From the IMG/VR virus record IMGVR_UViG_3300045988_153303: a stretch of DNA of 18,809 nucleotides; one strand, written 5' to 3'. Source of the DNA: a virus. Below the pieces are notes generated by a model. It searched no databases, was not told the DNA's origin, and saw only the letters and a program-made list of their open reading frames with translations. Positions 1-18,809 of the stretch are shown one piece after another. The position numbers and the translations under genes were made by a program. How positions within the stretch are numbered: the stretch's first letter is position 1; each line of letters opens with the position of its first letter.

Positions 1-72
1 GTGTGTGGTGGTGGTGTTGTTGTTTCATTGGCTGTTTTTTTATTTTTTTTTCCGTGTTTGTGTGTTTTCGGG

Positions 73-101
73 TTGTGTTGTTGTTTTTTGTGTGGTATAT
101 T
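73..101 (+). promoter_or_regulatory. Early promoter inside the left ITR (TTGTGT - 17 nt - TGgTATATT, extended -10)
   Basis: TTGTGT at 73-78, a 17-nt spacer, then TGGTATATT at 93-101. It lies about 34 nt upstream of the ATG at 135, which has AAGGAG at 123-128. The same extended -10 pattern recurs at 2917-2925 and 13113-13121 on the minus strand. Confidence 0.55.
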
Positions 102-111
102 GTAATTACAA
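100..111. promoter_or_regulatory. Perfect 12-bp palindrome TTGTAATTACAA overlapping the -10/+1 region (operator-like)
   Basis: ttgtaattacaa at 100-111 equals its own reverse complement and overlaps the last two bases of the -10 hexamer (96-101). I found it only in the two ITR copies. Confidence 0.4.
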
Positions 112-134
112 ACCTCATTGGAAAGGAGAATGAA

Positions 135-476
135 ATGTTTGTTGCAACTTATTTTGCGGATGATGATTGTGTTGTTGCTGTGCGGCCTGTTGCGGTTAAG
201 GGTGATGTGGATTGGTCGTCTTTGTATATTGTGGATGATGTTACTGGTTATGGTATGTGGCAGCAGGATGGTGATGATAGGTGGTTTATTGATATTGCTC
301 CTGTGGGTGGTTATGATTTGTGGTGTGATTTGGATGCGTTGAAGATTACTGGTATTTATGGTTCTGATGGGGGTGGGTGGGAGTCTTGTGTGAATGATTT
401 TCTTGCGGATTATGGTTTTAGGCTTGGTCGGTTTGATGGTGTTAGGGGGGATAGGTATGAGTTGGTTGCGTTGTGA
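135..476 (+). CDS. ITR-encoded acidic 113-aa protein, unknown function (left copy)
   Basis: ORF 3..476 trimmed to the ATG at 135, which has AAGGAG 6 nt upstream. The discarded N-terminus (MWWWCCCFIGCFF...) lies upstream of and across the predicted promoter and looks non-protein-like. I count about 19 Asp, 2 Glu, 8 Arg/Lys and 5 Trp. A hairpin terminator follows at 494-523. Confidence 0.7.
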   Translation: MFVATYFADDDCVVAVRPVAVKGDVDWSSLYIVDDVTGYGMWQQDGDDRWFIDIAPVGGYDLWCDLDALKITGIYGSDGGGWESCVNDFLADYGFRLGRFDGVRGDRYELVAL

Positions 477-493
477 GGTTGGTTGGATAAGTT

Positions 494-523
494 AAACCCC
501 TAGGTTTTTTGGCCTAGGGGTTT
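494..523. terminator. Hairpin terminator between convergent genes (ITR gene and endolysin)
   Basis: aaacccctagg (494-504) pairs perfectly with cctaggggttt (513-523) around an 8-nt loop. On the + strand a T-rich tail follows (tttttgttggttgtttt). It sits between a + strand stop (476) and a - strand stop (536). Confidence 0.75.
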
Positions 524-535
524 TTGTTGGTTGTT

Positions 536-1177
536 TTATATGAGGTATTGTGTTGTGCCGTTTACGGCTTTTAGTGCGACGTATCGGGTTTTGCCTGAAC
601 CGCCTGTGTAGTGTGCCCAAATGTACCCGTCTGCGGTTGTGGTGCCGCTTGCGAGGATGACGGTTTGTCCTTTGTGGTATTGTGCTACGACTTGACTGTG
701 GATGCTTGGTGCAGAGCGTACGTTGAGTACTGGCACGTTGACTTGATAGGTGCGTGTGGTGGTGGTGTTGTTGTTGTTGCGTGGGTGGAAGTATCCTATG
801 ATGCCTTTTTTGCTGATATTGATGTATCCGGCTTTGTTGGGGTTTTGTGACATGGTGGTGAGTGTGCCGTTGCCGTTGTCTTTGATTACGATGGCGACGT
901 GGTTCATGCCGCTGCGTTTCCAGAATGCTACGTCACCGTAGGTTGGCGTGTAGTTGGCTGACTCTTTGGTGAAAGCGTTTTGCAGTGCGTGGGAGCGGTT
1001 GTATCGTGCTGTGTATACGCTTGCTGCGTATCCGTCTATGGTGTTTGTGTCGGTTTGTGGGATGCTGTATACGTGTTGTGCGTAGGAGCTCCATAGGTCC
1101 CAGCATTGTGCTCCGTATGCTCCGTCCATGTCGATGGCTTTGCCGTTGACTGTGTTGATCCATTCTTGGATGTTCAT
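536..1177 (-). CDS. Endolysin: N-terminal CHAP-type cysteine peptidase/amidase plus C-terminal SH3b-like wall-binding domain
   Basis: ORF 536..1315 trimmed to the ATG at 1175-1177, preceded by AAAGGAG with a 6-nt spacer. CHAP-like GAYGAQCWDLW (Cys) and NHVAIV (His), an NNNNTTTT linker, and an SH3b-like C-terminus (YQVNVPVLNVRSAPS...GYIWAHY). It is the last gene of a holin-containing cassette. Confidence 0.85.
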   Translation of the reverse strand: MNIQEWINTVNGKAIDMDGAYGAQCWDLWSSYAQHVYSIPQTDTNTIDGYAASVYTARYNRSHALQNAFTKESANYTPTYGDVAFWKRSGMNHVAIVIKDNGNGTLTTMSQNPNKAGYINISKKGIIGYFHPRNNNNTTTTRTYQVNVPVLNVRSAPSIHSQVVAQYHKGQTVILASGTTTADGYIWAHYTGGSGKTRYVALKAVNGTTQYLI

Positions 1178-1188
1178 TTTTTGCTCCT

Positions 1189-1365
1189 TTATATGGTTTG
1201 GGTTAGGTATAGTGTTGCTGTGAGCCATGGTGTTATGGTTATTAGCATGAGTTGGGAGGCTCCTTTTCGGTATTGGTGTCCGGTTTTGAGGTGTGATAGG
1301 CAGTATGCTGTCCATCCTATGATGGCTAGGATGGTGAGGATGTTGAATGCTAGTATTTGGTTCAT
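1189..1365 (-). CDS. Small membrane protein (58 aa), possible holin partner or antiholin
   Basis: This is the last 58 codons of the otherwise implausible ORF 1189..1875: MNQILAFNILTILAIIGWTAYCLSHLK..., with one clear hydrophobic helix. Its ATG (1363-1365) overlaps the holin stop (1362-1364) as ATGA. Its stop lies next to the endolysin SD. Confidence 0.5.
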   Translation of the reverse strand: MNQILAFNILTILAIIGWTAYCLSHLKTGHQYRKGASQLMLITITPWLTATLYLTQTI

Positions 1366-1727
1366 TTGTTGCTGTGTTTTGGTTTGGTGTTGTTTTGTTT
1401 GAAGATGTTCATGAATGGCGTATTTTCGAGTTCGGGGTTGATGGCGGTAATGTTTTCGAGGATTGAGGTGAGTTCGATGAGGCAGATGCCACTGATGGTG
1501 CAGACGAATACGTTGATGGGGAAGCCGAGGGAGACGTGTGTGTTTACCGTGTCTATAAACCATGCCGTCACCGTGAGGATGAGGTAGGTCAGTTTGTGTC
1601 CTAGTCCTGTCCGCATCTTTTGGGAGCTGAGATCGCCTTTCATGATGGCTTTTATCGTGCCGGTGATATAGTCTGTGGTAGTGAAGAAGAGCACTGCGAT
1701 GGCGCACCACATGTCTGATTCTGTCAT
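1362..1727 (-). CDS. Holin (phage_holin_4-like)
   Basis: 121 aa with several hydrophobic segments. DYITGTIKAIMKGDLSSQKMRTGLGHKL resembles the hallmark of the LL-H/A118-type holin family as I remember it. SD GAAAGGA lies upstream of the ATG at 1725-1727. The gene is immediately upstream of the endolysin. Confidence 0.8.
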   Translation of the reverse strand: MTESDMWCAIAVLFFTTTDYITGTIKAIMKGDLSSQKMRTGLGHKLTYLILTVTAWFIDTVNTHVSLGFPINVFVCTISGICLIELTSILENITAINPELENTPFMNIFKQNNTKPKHSNK

Positions 1728-1742
1728 TATTGTGTTTCCTTT

Positions 1743-2810
1743 CTATTTTCCTAGCAGATCTCCAATGATCAGAGCGAAGTCTGCTTTGACTTGGGAGTCT
1801 TCGAATCTTATCTTGCCGAGCCGATAGCCGGTGGTAAGCCGTCTGATTACGTCGTCGGATTTTTTGACGTACCATGTCTTCTCGTCGACGTGGCTGGGGT
1901 CGAGCGTGTATACGGGGCGAGTGTTTTCTTTGGGGATGCGTCGTGAAATGTATTGTGAGACGTGGCCGTCCTTTTCGGATATGGTGATCCAGATTCCGAA
2001 GAGCCCATAGTCGGTGGTGTCTAGGACGTAGGATAGGTCGCTGTCTGACGGTATTGGCGCTATTAAAGTGTCGGATTCGTCTCGGAATTGGTTGCGGATG
2101 GCGTAATCCGCATAGTCGCTGTCATACTGTTCTAGGAATCTGCCGAATTTGGATTTGGCGACTTTTGCTGAGAAGCCTCCATAGTCAGCCAGCTCGAGAC
2201 AGATGAAGCCATTGCAATATAATTTATATTGTTGTTGATTGGCTTGTTGTGTGCCGATATCAAGCCTGTATTTGGCGAAATACGGATTGGCTTTCTGGAC
2301 CGCATTGGATAGGAACAGTACTTTCGTCCTATCCTGCCAGCGGTCGACGGTATTGTAGAATTCGGAGAATGAATTGACTTCATTGCTGAGGAAGCGCAGA
2401 TTGTCGGGGAAGATCTCATCGAAGATGATGAGATGCACTTTCGGGTAGGCGACTGATTTCAGGCCGCCGGCTTGGGAGAGGGCAACGAAGTAACAGCAGG
2501 TGCGCCAATCCTTTTCATCCCACGAATTCCTGTGCAATTGGCCTTTTTCGCCGTTGACGCGAAAAGCATATTCCGGGAAGAAGCCTTGGATGTCCTTGAA
2601 AAACGTTTCCTTGCGCTTCTGTTCCACATCGGTGCGTCGTAGGTAGATGAATTCGTGCCCGTGCTTGAGATATTCTTTGATTCCGTAGCGTTTCGCGGCG
2701 AATGTCTTGCCGAGGCCGCGCGCTCCGATGATGAAATTCCACGGCGCATTGCGGGAGAGGAGGTTGTGCAGGTCGTAATAGTCGTCTTCGCTTAATGTCT
2801 GCAACACCAC
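1743..2810 (-). CDS. DNA encapsidation (packaging) ATPase, phi29 gp16-like
   Basis: Walker A NFIIGARGLGKTF and Walker B HLIIFDEIF. The N-terminal region aligns closely with phi29 gp16 as I recall it (NFVIGARGIGKSY...FIYVRR versus NFIIGARGLGKTF...FIYLRR). GTG start with GGAGGAGGAG 6 nt upstream. Confidence 0.93.
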   Translation of the reverse strand: MVLQTLSEDDYYDLHNLLSRNAPWNFIIGARGLGKTFAAKRYGIKEYLKHGHEFIYLRRTDVEQKRKETFFKDIQGFFPEYAFRVNGEKGQLHRNSWDEKDWRTCCYFVALSQAGGLKSVAYPKVHLIIFDEIFPDNLRFLSNEVNSFSEFYNTVDRWQDRTKVLFLSNAVQKANPYFAKYRLDIGTQQANQQQYKLYCNGFICLELADYGGFSAKVAKSKFGRFLEQYDSDYADYAIRNQFRDESDTLIAPIPSDSDLSYVLDTTDYGLFGIWITISEKDGHVSQYISRRIPKENTRPVYTLDPSHVDEKTWYVKKSDDVIRRLTTGYRLGKIRFEDSQVKADFALIIGDLLGK

Positions 2811-16659: not shown

Positions 16660-17187
16660 CTACTTTCCTTGATCAAAAATCCTTGACAATTCCTTATCAT
16701 TATAACGAGTCACATCAAGTCTGTCAAAATTCTTAAAGACCGCAATAATAAGATTACGCGCCCGCACATCGTCGAAAAGAGCACAACAATCAAAGCTCGT
16801 ACCCCCCTTGACCGCACACACCGCGCACCAAGCGATCAGATTCACAGGATCCACCGTACCATCCAAATACTCCACATCGAAAGTACGAGACAGCGCCGAC
16901 TGCAAACCATCCCCCCGACTCAAAGAGCCAGCAATCCGCACGACCATGAGGACAGCCTGATCAAACCACGGATTAACCCCCTCTCGCCACAATTCACACA
17001 GCATAGCAACAGCCCGACAACACGTCTCGAAGTCACCACACCCCTCATCATAGCGGCCCAAGGAAGCCTCACGCATACGACCACACAGCGCCCTACGAAT
17101 ACGCGGCGACTCCATGATCGCATCATCAAAATCACGCATACGATAGATCGGGACCCAACCATCCCCCCGGACAAAACCCTTAGACAT
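16660..17187 (-). CDS. Early protein, about 175 aa, unknown function
   Basis: Long ORF 16660..17220. I prefer the ATG at 17185-17187 (GAGGA 8 nt upstream, 8-nt overlap with the upstream gene) over the ATG at 17220 (41-nt overlap). Helix-rich, Cys-rich sequence with no motif I recognise. Confidence 0.6.
   Translation of the reverse strand: MSKGFVRGDGWVPIYRMRDFDDAIMESPRIRRALCGRMREASLGRYDEGCGDFETCCRAVAMLCELWREGVNPWFDQAVLMVVRIAGSLSRGDGLQSALSRTFDVEYLDGTVDPVNLIAWCAVCAVKGGTSFDCCALFDDVRARNLIIAVFKNFDRLDVTRYNDKELSRIFDQGK
16699..16727 (-). promoter_or_regulatory. Consensus sigma-70-type promoter TTGACA - 17 nt - TATAAT for the replication module
   Basis: + strand attata at 16699-16704 and tgtcaa at 16722-16727, with exactly 17 nt between them. 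On the minus strand this reads TTGACA-N17-TATAAT. The -10 hexamer ends about 45 nt upstream of the ATG at 16653. The promoter lies inside the 3' end of the 16660..17187 CDS. Confidence 0.75.
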
Positions 17188-17353
17188 AATACCGATCCTC
17201 GATCCTAAAATAGGAGACATCCTTTACACGCTCCGGCCTATCAGCCCACTCACGAACTATCTTGTAACCCTCATCATACGACGACGCATAGCCGATCTCG
17301 ACAGGCTCACCACCATGACGCAAATACGCCAAAACAGTAAAAGTCTTATACAT
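17180..17353 (-). CDS. Early protein, 57 aa, unknown function (below the ORF-track size cut-off)
   Basis: Hand translation: MYKTFTVLAYLRHGGEPVEIGYASSYDEGYKIVREWADRPERVKDVSYFRIEDRYYV. AGGA lies 9 nt upstream. It fills the gap between neighbouring genes; the upstream stop at 17357 is 3 nt away. Confidence 0.45.
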   Translation of the reverse strand: MYKTFTVLAYLRHGGEPVEIGYASSYDEGYKIVREWADRPERVKDVSYFRIEDRYYV

Positions 17354-17356
17354 GAT

Positions 17357-17569
17357 TCACATTCCTAACGTTTCATACTGCTCGACACTCCAATCATGCC
17401 CACATACCCACATGTCATGCCAGACGGCAATCAGACGACGCGGACAGCGAGTCGGTGCAACAAAACGACGATTCCGATAGCCACTCCAGAAAGCACGAAG
17501 CCGCCAATACGCCTCCGCATCCGGACAATCACCACACGTGAGCGAATGAACAAAGCCACAAAAATACAT
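17357..17569 (-). CDS. Early protein, about 70 aa, Cys/Trp-rich, unknown function
   Basis: The track ORF 17357..17572 starts at GTG. The ATG at 17567-17569 shares one base with the upstream TGA (TGATG), suggesting translational coupling. Confidence 0.5.
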   Translation of the reverse strand: MYFCGFVHSLTCGDCPDAEAYWRLRAFWSGYRNRRFVAPTRCPRRLIAVWHDMWVCGHDWSVEQYETLGM

Positions 17570-17799
17570 CACCCCCTCCTTTCGACAGATTCTGCGGCAA
17601 GACTAATAGCATCCAACACCATACTCCCCATCTCACTCGGCTTCGTTACATCATAATAACAAGAAGACATCACACCACCCCCCGTACGATACCTCAACAC
17701 CAGCATCTGCTGATGCGGACAATACTCACACCCCACATTACCAGCTATATGCGGGCTATAAAACACGGCGATTTTCACATCACGCGCAGACGATTTCAT
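17569..17799 (-). CDS. Early protein, about 76 aa, unknown function
   Basis: ORF 17569..17844 trimmed to the ATG at 17797-17799, which has GAAAGGA 5 nt upstream. This removes the overlap with the upstream gene, which ends at 17814. Confidence 0.5.
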   Translation of the reverse strand: MKSSARDVKIAVFYSPHIAGNVGCEYCPHQQMLVLRYRTGGGVMSSCYYDVTKPSEMGSMVLDAISLAAESVERRG

Positions 17800-17813
17800 G
17801 ACAATCCTTTCGA

Positions 17814-18122
17814 TCAAAATTTTCCAAGAATACGATGCTCCCACGAGACATACTCATCATACCACTCGGAACATACCAGCTCATCCAAAGACAAGCCAAC
17901 AACACAGGCACGCTTACACGCCATATATCCGTCCAGCAAATCATAAGCCGTAAGCGCCAGCCACAAACGGCCGTCAGCCAGTACGAAAAACTCATGATAC
18001 GGCCGACGACACCCCGGATGCTTCCACGTCCACACGAACACAACCCTCCGCAAAGACTTCGAATCAACCAAAGTAAAATAATGATGTTGCATAACATCAT
18101 CAACACACAACACAACACTCAC
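17814..18122 (-). CDS. Early protein, 102 aa, unknown function
   Basis: GTG start overlapping the upstream stop (GTGA), with GAGG 4 nt upstream. More protein-like than the competing frame 17780..18118. 5 Trp and 5 Cys. Confidence 0.55.
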   Translation of the reverse strand: MSVVLCVDDVMQHHYFTLVDSKSLRRVVFVWTWKHPGCRRPYHEFFVLADGRLWLALTAYDLLDGYMACKRACVVGLSLDELVCSEWYDEYVSWEHRILGKF

Positions 18123-18334
18123 CTCCCCTCACACACAGGATCAAAAGCCATACAATAACGAGCCCAGCCAATAAGCTGAGCCGAAAACAACATCGCACGA
18201 TCCGCACTCACCTCAAAACGATAAACACTACCATCCAAACCAATATACGCAACGGTAGCAACACCATCCGAACGCTGAACAATACTGACACTAAAATGCT
18301 CCACAATACACTCCTTACCTACAAATACTCCCAT
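18119..18334 (-). CDS. Early protein, about 71 aa, unknown function
   Basis: The ATG at 18332-18334 shares one base with the TGA of the ITR gene (TGATG), exactly at the inner ITR boundary. Confidence 0.5.
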   Translation of the reverse strand: MGVFVGKECIVEHFSVSIVQRSDGVATVAYIGLDGSVYRFEVSADRAMLFSAQLIGWARYCMAFDPVCEGR

Positions 18335-18675
18335 CACAACGCAACCAACTCATACCTATCCCCCCTAACACCATCAAACCGACCAAGCCTAAAACCATAA
18401 TCCGCAAGAAAATCATTCACACAAGACTCCCACCCACCCCCATCAGAACCATAAATACCAGTAATCTTCAACGCATCCAAATCACACCACAAATCATAAC
18501 CACCCACAGGAGCAATATCAATAAACCACCTATCATCACCATCCTGCTGCCACATACCATAACCAGTAACATCATCCACAATATACAAAGACGACCAATC
18601 CACATCACCCTTAACCGCAACAGGCCGCACAGCAACAACACAATCATCATCCGCAAAATAAGTTGCAACAAACAT
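18334..18675 (-). CDS. ITR-encoded acidic 113-aa protein (right copy, first gene of the early operon)
   Basis: Mirror image of 135..476, with identical sequence. Confidence 0.7.
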   Translation of the reverse strand: MFVATYFADDDCVVAVRPVAVKGDVDWSSLYIVDDVTGYGMWQQDGDDRWFIDIAPVGGYDLWCDLDALKITGIYGSDGGGWESCVNDFLADYGFRLGRFDGVRGDRYELVAL

Positions 18676-18698
18676 TTCATTCTCCTTTCCAATGAGGT

Positions 18699-18710
18699 TT
18701 GTAATTACAA
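18699..18710. promoter_or_regulatory. Right-arm copy of the TTGTAATTACAA palindrome
   Basis: Mirror of 100-111 within the ITR. Confidence 0.4.
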
Positions 18711-18737
18711 TATACCACACAAAAAACAACAACACAA
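18709..18737 (-). promoter_or_regulatory. Early promoter inside the right ITR
   Basis: Mirror of 73-101. Here it would drive the whole right-arm early operon. Confidence 0.55.
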
Positions 18738-18809
18738 CCCGAAAACACACAAACACGGAAAAAAAAATAAAAAAACAGCCAATGAAACAACAACACCACC
18801 ACCACACAC

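What the first reader, a model, noticed from the sequence alone, without database searches (positions are those of the whole stretch)
135..476. The duplicated ITR gene encodes a strongly acidic, Asp/Trp-rich 113-aa protein: DNA-mimic or anti-defence candidate
By my count the protein has about 21 acidic and 8 basic residues, a net charge near -13, and 5 Trp. Its acidic residues are almost all Asp, in runs such as DDD, VDD and GDD. It is the promoter-proximal gene at both tips of the genome, so it should be among the first products made. Small, very acidic early phage proteins are typically DNA mimics. Examples are Ocr and ArdA against restriction enzymes, and phi29 p56 against host uracil-DNA glycosylase, which matters for phages that replicate through long ssDNA intermediates. 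I recognise no family signature, so it may be a new member of this functional class.
Basis: inference. Interest (0 to 1): 0.62.

Follow-up and report, generated by a model that had tools for sequence, protein, structure and literature searches.

The report
Acidic early protein in phage ITRs
A small, very acidic protein of unknown fold is encoded behind a promoter at both ends of a Bifidobacterium phage genome. It belongs to a gene family that moves between unrelated Bifidobacterium phages, which makes it a reasonable but untested candidate for a host-defence blocker, not a proven DNA mimic.

Summary
Window 135-476 (+) and its exact copy at 18675-18334 (-) encode a 113-aa protein with 19 Asp, 2 Glu, 2 Lys, 6 Arg and 5 Trp (net -13, pI 4.05). 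The gene is real: about 100 homologous clusters, dN/dS 0.06-0.5, and family-wide acidity (mean net -15.7) with about 20 conserved acidic positions. Random ORFs of the same extreme G+T composition explain the Trp content but not the Asp content or the charge.

The window is a complete phi29-like Bifidobacterium podophage, about 80% identical to BD811P1-3. Its ITR carries a conserved promoter and ribosome-binding site. In relatives this promoter drives different small acidic proteins at either end.

The same gene, at 87% nucleotide identity, sits as a self-promoted, self-terminated cassette between exo and erf in 30-kb siphophages. It is multi-copy in large unidentified elements.

A confident AlphaFold model (pLDDT 84, pTM 0.77; beta-rich) matches nothing in PDB or BFVD. 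Profile comparisons with Ocr, p56, Gam, p17 and p6 are null.

My best reading is a mobile early accessory inhibitor of a host factor, probably anti-defence (about 0.4). True DNA mimicry stays unproven (about 0.2). The main rival is a positional analogue of phi29 p17, which is equally acidic.

The parts
1..476 (+). Left inverted terminal repeat. It holds the promoter, palindrome, RBS and the whole gene, and ends on the last base of the stop codon.
   Evidence: arms 1-476 and 18334-18809 are 100% complementary. Sequence read.
93..101 (+). Extended -10 promoter element TGgTATATT. This is inferred, not shown by transcript data.
   Evidence: Read. The motif GTGTGGTAT(G/A)nT / GTGTTATAGT is conserved at the ends of relatives and of BP1 and BD811P2. 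The generic sigma-70 scan did not flag it because there is no -35 match.
100..111 (+). Perfect 12-bp palindrome TTGTAATTACAA overlapping the likely transcript start. It is operator-like.
   Evidence: Read. It is imperfectly conserved in relatives (TGTAGTTACAA, TATAGTTATCAA).
123..128 (+). Shine-Dalgarno sequence AAGGAG, 6 nt upstream of the ATG.
   Evidence: An equivalent GGAAGGA/GGAAAGGA is found in all relatives.
135..476 (+). Left copy of the acidic-protein gene (113 aa, P0001). It is a stand-alone unit convergent with the lysis and late genes.
494..533 (.). Hairpin terminator (13-bp stem plus a T run) between the left copy and the minus-strand endolysin gene. It lies outside the repeat.
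18334..18675 (-). Right copy of the gene. It is the first gene of the minus-strand early gene row. Its TGA overlaps the GTG start of the next gene (GTGA).
   Evidence: The overlap is read from the mirrored sequence 473-476.
18119..18337 (-). 72-aa early gene that follows the right copy. Homologues follow the family gene at the early end of relatives.
18334..18809 (-). Right inverted terminal repeat, with mirrored promoter, palindrome and RBS.

Best explanation
The gene is a mobile, self-promoted early accessory cassette. A host-type promoter inside the terminal repeat transcribes it as soon as either genome end enters the cell. At the left end a terminator makes it a one-gene unit. At the right end it is translationally coupled (GTGA overlap) to the early gene row.

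The product is a small, soluble, beta-rich protein of a fold with no known relative. Its many negative charges sit at conserved positions, most notably a D-E-[DE]-E patch at the start of its single helix.

I infer that it acts alone, as a stoichiometric binder or decoy that blocks a host (Bifidobacterium) protein. The most likely target is a DNA-binding defence enzyme such as a restriction or other nuclease, reached through an electronegative surface.

Shown here: the gene is real, selected and acidic, it occupies the first-gene position, it is a cassette that has been exchanged horizontally, and its fold is new.

Inferred: early expression, the host target, and the inhibitory mode of action.
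For: - Real and selected. 9 close and about 100 wider homologous clusters, all about 105-113 aa. dN/dS is 0.06-0.5.
- Acidity is conserved. Mean net charge is -15.7 and only 1 of 57 members has a pI above 5. About 20 alignment columns are >=60% Asp/Glu. The acidity is far above what the base composition gives.
- First gene behind a conserved terminal promoter and RBS.
- The slot is variable. The family gene is at the late end only in BD811P1-3, at the early end only in three contigs (L006-8), and at both ends in the window and two contigs. Unrelated small acidic proteins occupy terminal slots elsewhere: at BD811P2's early end, opposite its family copy, gp01 is 61 aa (net -14), and at BP1's late end gp1 is 81 aa (net -11).
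- The function is independent of phage type. In six 30-kb siphophage contigs (tape measure, amidase, DnaC, dUTPase) the gene lies between exo and erf on the opposite strand. In the one examined in detail (L012) it has its own promoter and terminator.
- The siphophage copy is 87% identical in nucleotides to the BD811P1 end, while nothing else in the 2.7-kb stretch searched (gene, exo and erf) matches.
- 2-3 paralogues per locus occur in large elements.
- On contig L010 it sits in an array of same-promoter cassettes next to a pentapeptide-repeat protein. That class includes known DNA mimics, which I state from general knowledge. The Pfam E-value is 2e-37.
- The AlphaFold model is confident (pLDDT 83.7, pTM 0.77).
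Against: - There is no functional data of any kind.
- There is no structural or sequence link to any known inhibitor or mimic.
- The charge distribution on the model could not be inspected.
- Acidity alone is a weak predictor here, because phi29 p17 and p6 are as acidic without being mimics.
- The window's own protein has lost three of the four residues of the family's most conserved acidic patch (D-G-G-G).
- The antisense, self-terminated placement in siphophages would also fit a gene expressed from a prophage for another purpose.
Confidence: 0.4

Rival explanations
1. It is a functional analogue of phi29 p17. That protein is the first product made from the first-entering genome end. It helps pull the rest of the linear, terminal-protein-capped genome into the cell and helps start replication at low copy number. 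Placing the gene in both repeats would make this work whichever end enters first.
For: - In phi29 the terminal inward promoter C2 drives gene 17 as first gene. It is convergent with the late operon and separated from it by bidirectional terminators. The window's left end has the same layout.
- p17 is equally acidic: -21 over 166 aa, or -0.127 per residue, against -0.115 here.
- p17's roles in DNA entry and first-round replication are described in PMC2771126 and PMC11476376.
Against: - There is no sequence similarity to p17 (hhalign probability 0.07%).
- Close homologues sit inside 30-kb siphophages that have Erf, DnaC and O-like replication modules and no sign of protein priming. They are also multi-copy in large elements.
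- The related podophage BP1 lacks the family altogether.
- The gene is at the early end in some relatives and at the late end in others.
Confidence: 0.12
2. It is a host-takeover inhibitor aimed at a non-defence host protein, such as RNA polymerase or sigma factor, gyrase, a nucleoid protein, or the host recombination nuclease (a Gam/Abc2-like role).
For: - It has the same early, accessory, acidic and mobile features as the best explanation.
- In six siphophage contigs the gene lies exactly between the exonuclease and the Erf annealing protein. This is the neighbourhood where lambda keeps gam.
- In L014 it is co-directional with Erf and upstream of it.
Against: - There is no similarity to Gam or to any solved inhibitor.
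- In most siphophage contigs it is on the opposite strand to exo and erf. In L012, the one read in detail, it has its own promoter and terminator, so it is not part of that operon.
- Terminal-protein-capped ends should not need protection from end-dependent nucleases. This point is general knowledge, not tested here.
Confidence: 0.2
3. It is specifically a uracil-DNA glycosylase inhibitor, a functional analogue of phi29 p56 or of Ugi. It would protect uracil-containing single-stranded replication intermediates.
For: - The phage is phi29-like and protein-primed.
- At each end, the strand whose 5' end lies at that terminus is extremely C-poor and T-rich over about 2 kb, whatever the coding direction. 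This fits heavy cytosine deamination on a displaced single strand (inference).
- The charge density, -0.115 per residue, is close to that of p56 at -0.125.
Against: - hhalign against p56 gives a probability of 0.2%.
- No Foldseek match appears to any PDB chain, and the library includes UDG-inhibitor complexes.
- At 113 aa the protein is twice the size of p56.
- Homologues occur in siphophages that carry a dUTPase and replicate differently.
Confidence: 0.07
4. It is a spurious ORF: an open frame left by chance in stop-poor, G+T-rich repeat DNA.
For: The repeat is 78% G+T, so stop codons are rare. The frame is open from base 3. The Trp, Gly and Val content follows the base composition.
Against: - Homologues occur in DNA of ordinary composition (for example L012).
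- dN/dS is well below 1.
- There are conserved columns and a confident fold.
- The RBS is strong.
- Only 17 of 5000 shuffles give an ORF this long.
Confidence: 0.01

Closest known systems
T7 Ocr (gp0.3), an anti-restriction DNA mimic
   Same: Both are small (117 vs 113 aa), very acidic and lack enzymatic motifs. Both are encoded as the first gene behind host-recognised promoters at the genome end that enters the cell. For T7 this is established knowledge. For the window it is inferred from position.
   Different: There is no homology (hhalign probability 0.3%). Ocr is all-helical (general knowledge), whereas this model has nine strands and one helix, with no Foldseek match. The charge density is half that of Ocr: -0.115 against -0.239 per residue.
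phi29 p56, a UDG inhibitor
   Same: Both are acidic early proteins of a protein-primed podophage, with similar charge density.
   Different: There is no homology. This protein is twice the length. It is encoded in the terminal repeat rather than at the distal end of the left early operon. Homologues occur outside protein-primed phages.
phi29 p17, a DNA-entry and early replication protein
   Same: The genome position is the same: first gene behind a terminal inward promoter, convergent with the late genes across a terminator. The acidity is also the same.
   Different: There is no homology. p17 has 166 aa. This family is an exchangeable accessory gene that is also found in siphophages and in large elements.
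Lambda Gam, a RecBCD inhibitor
   Same: The siphophage homologues lie beside the exonuclease and annealing-protein pair, as gam does.
   Different: There is no homology. The gene is on the opposite strand with its own promoter and terminator. Gam is only mildly acidic at -8 over 138 aa.

Membership tests
Ocr (T7 gp0.3) family | Sequence or profile homology to Ocr | tested here: not met
   No Pfam hit at E<=10. hhalign of the family profile against T7 Ocr gives probability 0.3%.
Ocr (T7 gp0.3) family | Helical fold that copies bent B-form DNA | tested here: not met
   The model is beta-rich, with 9 strands and 1 helix. No PDB chain matches at E<0.7.
ArdA anti-restriction family | Homology to ArdA, by Pfam model or solved structure | tested here: not met
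   No Pfam, PHROG or NCBIfam hit. The family HMM against all PDB sequences finds only 1z0p at E=0.5. No Foldseek match.
phi29 p56 / Ugi UDG inhibitors | Homology or fold similarity to p56 or Ugi | tested here: not met
   hhalign against p56 gives probability 0.2%. Ugi and p56 complexes are in the PDB library searched and were not recovered.
phi29 p56 / Ugi UDG inhibitors | Binds and inhibits uracil-DNA glycosylase | not testable with these tools
   This needs a biochemical assay.
DNA-mimic proteins (functional class) | Strong net negative charge in a small protein | tested here: met
   Net charge is -13 over 113 aa with pI 4.05. The family mean is -15.7. About 20 columns are conserved as acidic.
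DNA-mimic proteins (functional class) | Surface carboxylates spaced like DNA phosphates, and competition with DNA for a DNA-binding protein | not testable with these tools
phi29 p17 | First gene behind a terminal inward early promoter, convergent with the late operon | tested here: met
   phi29 annotation compared with the window's left end.
phi29 p17 | Sequence homology to p17 | tested here: not met
   hhalign probability 0.07%.
Lambda Gam | Homology to Gam | tested here: not met
   hhalign probability 0.08%. No PDB match.
Pfam DUF6630 | Score above the Pfam gathering threshold (27 bits) | tested here: not met
   12 of 45 family members give weak hits (best E=0.019, about 13 bits), and the window's protein gives none. 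The family is uncharacterised anyway, and no paper mentions it.

The most novel reading that the evidence does not exclude
This is the founding member of a new-fold family of DNA-mimic or anti-defence proteins. The family spreads as promoter-bearing cassettes among unrelated Bifidobacterium phages. In phi29-like podophages it occupies a variable 'first-in' slot driven by a promoter inside the terminal repeat. The counter-defence protein is therefore made whichever genome end enters first.
Probability: 0.2. Interest if true: 0.7.

Novelty: new member of a known kind. Interest (0 to 1): 0.42.

Why it matters
Bifidobacterium phages are barely studied. Bifidobacteria are, from general knowledge, rich in restriction-modification systems that hamper both phage work and genetic manipulation.

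A small protein that disarms such a barrier would be a practical tool and a new structural solution. The comparative picture found here is a concrete shortlist for counter-defence discovery:
- a conserved terminal promoter driving interchangeable small acidic proteins;
- the same cassette shared with siphophages.

If the protein instead proves to be a p17-like entry factor, it would show that this function can be supplied by exchangeable genes.

Tried and rejected
- **Family libraries.** Pfam, PHROGs and NCBIfam gave nothing for the protein.
- **DUF6630.** Weak hits appeared in 12 of 45 members. I followed them up, but they stay below threshold, the family is uncharacterised, and no paper mentions it.
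- **1z0p.** The only PDB sequence hit (SPy1572, E=0.5 over 28 residues) was not backed by Foldseek, so I treat it as chance.
- **Bacterial genomes.** With the narrow one it found no relative in 185,579 species genomes, so there is no evidence for prophage copies in representative genomes.
- **Own assembly.** The window's own assembly is not held.
- **Large contigs.** I could not identify the 167-495-kb contigs that carry paralogues. There was no plasmid or phage match, and no PHROG or Pfam hit for their neighbours apart from an ADP-ribosyltransferase.
- **Spurious ORF.** I considered and rejected this reading (see rivals).
- **'Trp-rich' as a meaningful feature.** I rejected this because the Trp count is compositional, although W42, W50 and W82 are conserved family-wide.

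Full report
**What the window is.** The 18,809-bp window is a complete linear phage genome with perfect 476-bp inverted terminal repeats. Over 67-73% of its length it is about 80% identical in nucleotides to the Bifidobacterium dentium podophages BD811P1-3. These carry a phi29-type DNA polymerase, portal, capsid and packaging genes. All long ORFs are on the minus strand, except the left copy of the gene in question.

**Check of the observation.**
- Bases 135-476 translate to 113 residues plus a stop.
- The counts are D19, E2, K2, R6 and W5, with net charge -13.5 and pI 4.05.
- The identical copy lies at 18675-18334 on the minus strand, and the repeat ends on the last base of the TGA.
- Upstream I read an extended -10 element TGgTATATT (93-101), a perfect palindrome TTGTAATTACAA (100-111) and AAGGAG (123-128), 6 nt before the ATG.
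- A 13-bp-stem terminator follows at 494-523, outside the repeat.
- At the right end there is no such terminator. The stop overlaps the GTG start of a 72-aa gene (GTGA), so there the gene heads the early gene row.

**Composition versus selection.**
- The repeat is extremely G+T-rich: G 35%, T 43%, A 15%, C 7%.
- Third codon positions of the gene are T 65%, G 35%, A 1% and C 0%.
- This bias belongs to the strand whose 5' end is at the nearby terminus. It holds whatever the coding direction, because the minus-strand lysis genes at the left end are A+C-rich on their coding strand.
- Random stop-free ORFs of the same base composition give on average D 3.2, E 3.4, K+R 8.1 and W 6.6.
- None of 5000 reaches 19 Asp, one reaches net -13, and 79% have at least 5 Trp.
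- The Trp richness is therefore compositional. The acidity is maintained against mutation pressure.

**Is the gene real?**
- A search of 5.8 billion proteins found 8 relatives at 41-83% identity, on contigs of 17.5-18.9 kb.
- An exhaustive HMMER search of 1.8 billion representatives found 35 clusters.
- A profile search found 99 proteins, nearly all 103-114 aa. None has a name beyond 'hypothetical protein'.
- Pairwise dN/dS is 0.06-0.5.
- The C-terminal motif LADYGF(K/R)LGxFDxxxGDRYELV is almost invariant.
- Across 57 members the mean net charge is -15.7, and only one member has a pI above 5.
- About 20 columns are at least 60% Asp/Glu. They include a D-E-[DE]-E patch at the start of the only helix.
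- The family uses Asp and Glu at about 3:2, so the near-exclusive Asp here is local.
- In the window's protein that most conserved acidic patch reads D-G-G-G.

**Structure.**
- AlphaFold2 with a 45-sequence alignment gave a confident model (mean pLDDT 83.7, pTM 0.77) with nine strands and one helix.
- Foldseek found nothing in the PDB (best E=0.75) or in BFVD (best E=0.31).
- The family HMM against all PDB sequences found only 1z0p, at E=0.5 over 28 residues.
- hhalign of the family profile against T7 Ocr, phi29 p56, lambda Gam, phi29 p17 and phi29 p6 gave probabilities of 0.07-0.3%.
- The protein is therefore not a member of any known mimic family, and its fold has no detectable relative.
- I could not inspect the electrostatic surface, because model coordinates are not exposed.

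**Context in the podophage group.**
- The terminal repeat carries a conserved promoter and ribosome-binding site in all relatives. The consensus is roughly TTTGTGTGGTATnnTGTAGTTAnCAACTTCAAGGGAAGGAA.
- What follows it varies:
  - In BD811P1-3 the family gene is present once, at the late (lysis) end.
  - The other end of BD811P2 drives an unrelated 61-aa protein of net charge -14.
  - In three metagenomic genomes (L006-8) the family gene is at the early end only.
  - In contig 178209 the two ends carry paralogues that are 81% and 49% identical to the window's protein, behind a 137-bp repeat.
  - In contig 145004 and in the window both ends are identical, with repeats of 621 and 476 bp.
  - BP1 lacks the family. 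It has a different 81-aa protein of net -11 in the late-end slot.
- The repeat promoter therefore drives a variable slot, mostly filled by small acidic proteins.
- I infer that the 476-bp repeat arose by gene conversion between terminal paralogues. This would explain why it stops exactly where the homology stops, at the stop codon.

**Context outside the group.**
- Six viral contigs of 28-31 kb are siphophages, with tape measure, amidase, RecE-like exonuclease, Erf, DnaC-like loader, O-like initiator, dUTPase and Ant.
- In them the gene lies between exo and erf on the opposite strand. In L012, which I read in detail, it has its own TGaTATTAT promoter, RBS and terminator.
- The L012 copy is 87% identical in nucleotides to the first 319 bases of BD811P1. 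Nothing else in the 2.7-kb stretch I searched (gene, exo and erf) matches. This points to recent transfer of a cassette between unrelated phages, presumably of the same host genus.
- In L014 the gene is co-directional with Erf and upstream of it.
- On the 6-kb contig L010 it lies in a row of cassettes, three of them headed by the same early promoter motif. The row holds a pentapeptide-repeat plus DUF5758 protein (Pfam E=2e-37), an acidic 97-aa protein, the family member, and a homologue of BP1 gp1.
- Pentapeptide-repeat proteins include known DNA mimics. This is my own knowledge. The association rests on a single contig and is only suggestive.
- Metagenome contigs of 167-495 kb (57% G+C) carry two or three paralogues within 5 kb, near an ADP-ribosyltransferase.
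- I could not identify these large elements.
- No relative was found in 185,579 representative bacterial genomes using the family's most conserved motif.

**Interpretation.**
- A function tied to protein-primed replication or to the repeat itself is hard to reconcile with three facts. The gene is present in siphophages and large elements. It is absent from BP1. It moves between genome ends.
- The features fit an accessory protein directed at the host (or a competitor) that works alone. It has its own promoter, takes the first-gene position, is exchanged horizontally and forms paralogue arrays. Its evolution is moderately fast and its negative charges are conserved.
- I therefore favour a stoichiometric inhibitor or decoy of a host DNA-binding defence enzyme (confidence about 0.4). 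True DNA mimicry is a subset of that (about 0.2).

**The strongest caution.**
- It comes from phi29 itself. The terminal promoter C2 there drives gene 17 in the same layout.
- p17 is as acidic as this protein, and so is p6.
- p17 serves DNA entry and first-round replication (PMC2771126 and PMC11476376).
- In this phage group, 'acidic and early' does not by itself imply mimicry.
- The UDG-inhibitor idea draws some colour from the extreme C depletion of the terminal 5'-ended strands. It has no direct support.

**Verdict.**
- This is a new, uncharacterised protein family with a new predicted fold, and a good experimental candidate.
- Its function is untested, and small acidic early phage proteins of unknown role are common, so I score interest as moderate.
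- An earlier first-stage note of this scan had already described the same repeat with its promoter, palindrome and whole gene.

Noticed in passing
window 1-2000 and 16700-18809: The strand whose 5' end lies at the nearby terminus is strongly G+T-rich and C-poor over about 2 kb at both ends, whatever the coding direction. The minus-strand lysis genes at the left end are A+C-rich on their coding strand. This fits deamination of a long-lived displaced single strand during protein-primed replication (inference).
   Followed up: partly
window 366-377 (codons 78-81 of the gene): The family's most conserved acidic patch (D-E-[DE]-E at the start of the helix) reads D-G-G-G in this genome. Close relatives have DEDD, DGDD or DGGE. 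A GAx-to-GGx change is the direction of the local mutation bias.
   Followed up: partly
window 100-111 and 18699-18710: A perfect 12-bp palindrome, TTGTAATTACAA, overlaps the -10 element and the likely transcript start of the repeat promoter. Relatives keep an imperfect version. It could be an operator for shut-off of the terminal promoters.
   Followed up: no
L010 3900-5900 (IMG/VR contig 3300031853_002308): A row of early cassettes, three of them headed by one promoter motif (GTAATATCATAGTTATCAACCAAAC...GGAAAGGAA). It contains a pentapeptide-repeat plus DUF5758 protein, an acidic 97-aa protein, the family member and a homologue of BP1 gp1. It looks like an island of small acidic early proteins.
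   Followed up: partly
L019, L020, L021 (ENA metagenome scaffolds of 167-495 kb, 57% G+C): Two or three paralogues of the family lie within 5 kb, a few kb from a 492-aa ADP-ribosyltransferase-domain protein. Gene calls are sparse. Neighbours have no Pfam or PHROG match, and there is no plasmid or phage match. The nature of these large elements is unknown.
   Followed up: partly
L023 1-300 (GenBank PQ571273, Bifidobacterium phage BP1): The first ~300 bases of the deposited record hold a duplicated fragment of gp1 followed by sequence that looks like an Illumina adapter (...ACACTCTTTCCCTACACGACGCTCTTCCGATCT). The true genome end probably starts just after it. The record therefore shows no perfect terminal repeat as deposited.
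   Followed up: no
L003 and L009 (IMG/VR contig 3300045988_178209, both ends): The two ends carry diverged paralogues of the family gene behind an identical 137-bp repeat. The late-end copy looks mosaic, with the N- and C-termini like the window type and the middle like another subfamily. It may represent the state that preceded the extended 476-bp repeat.
   Followed up: partly
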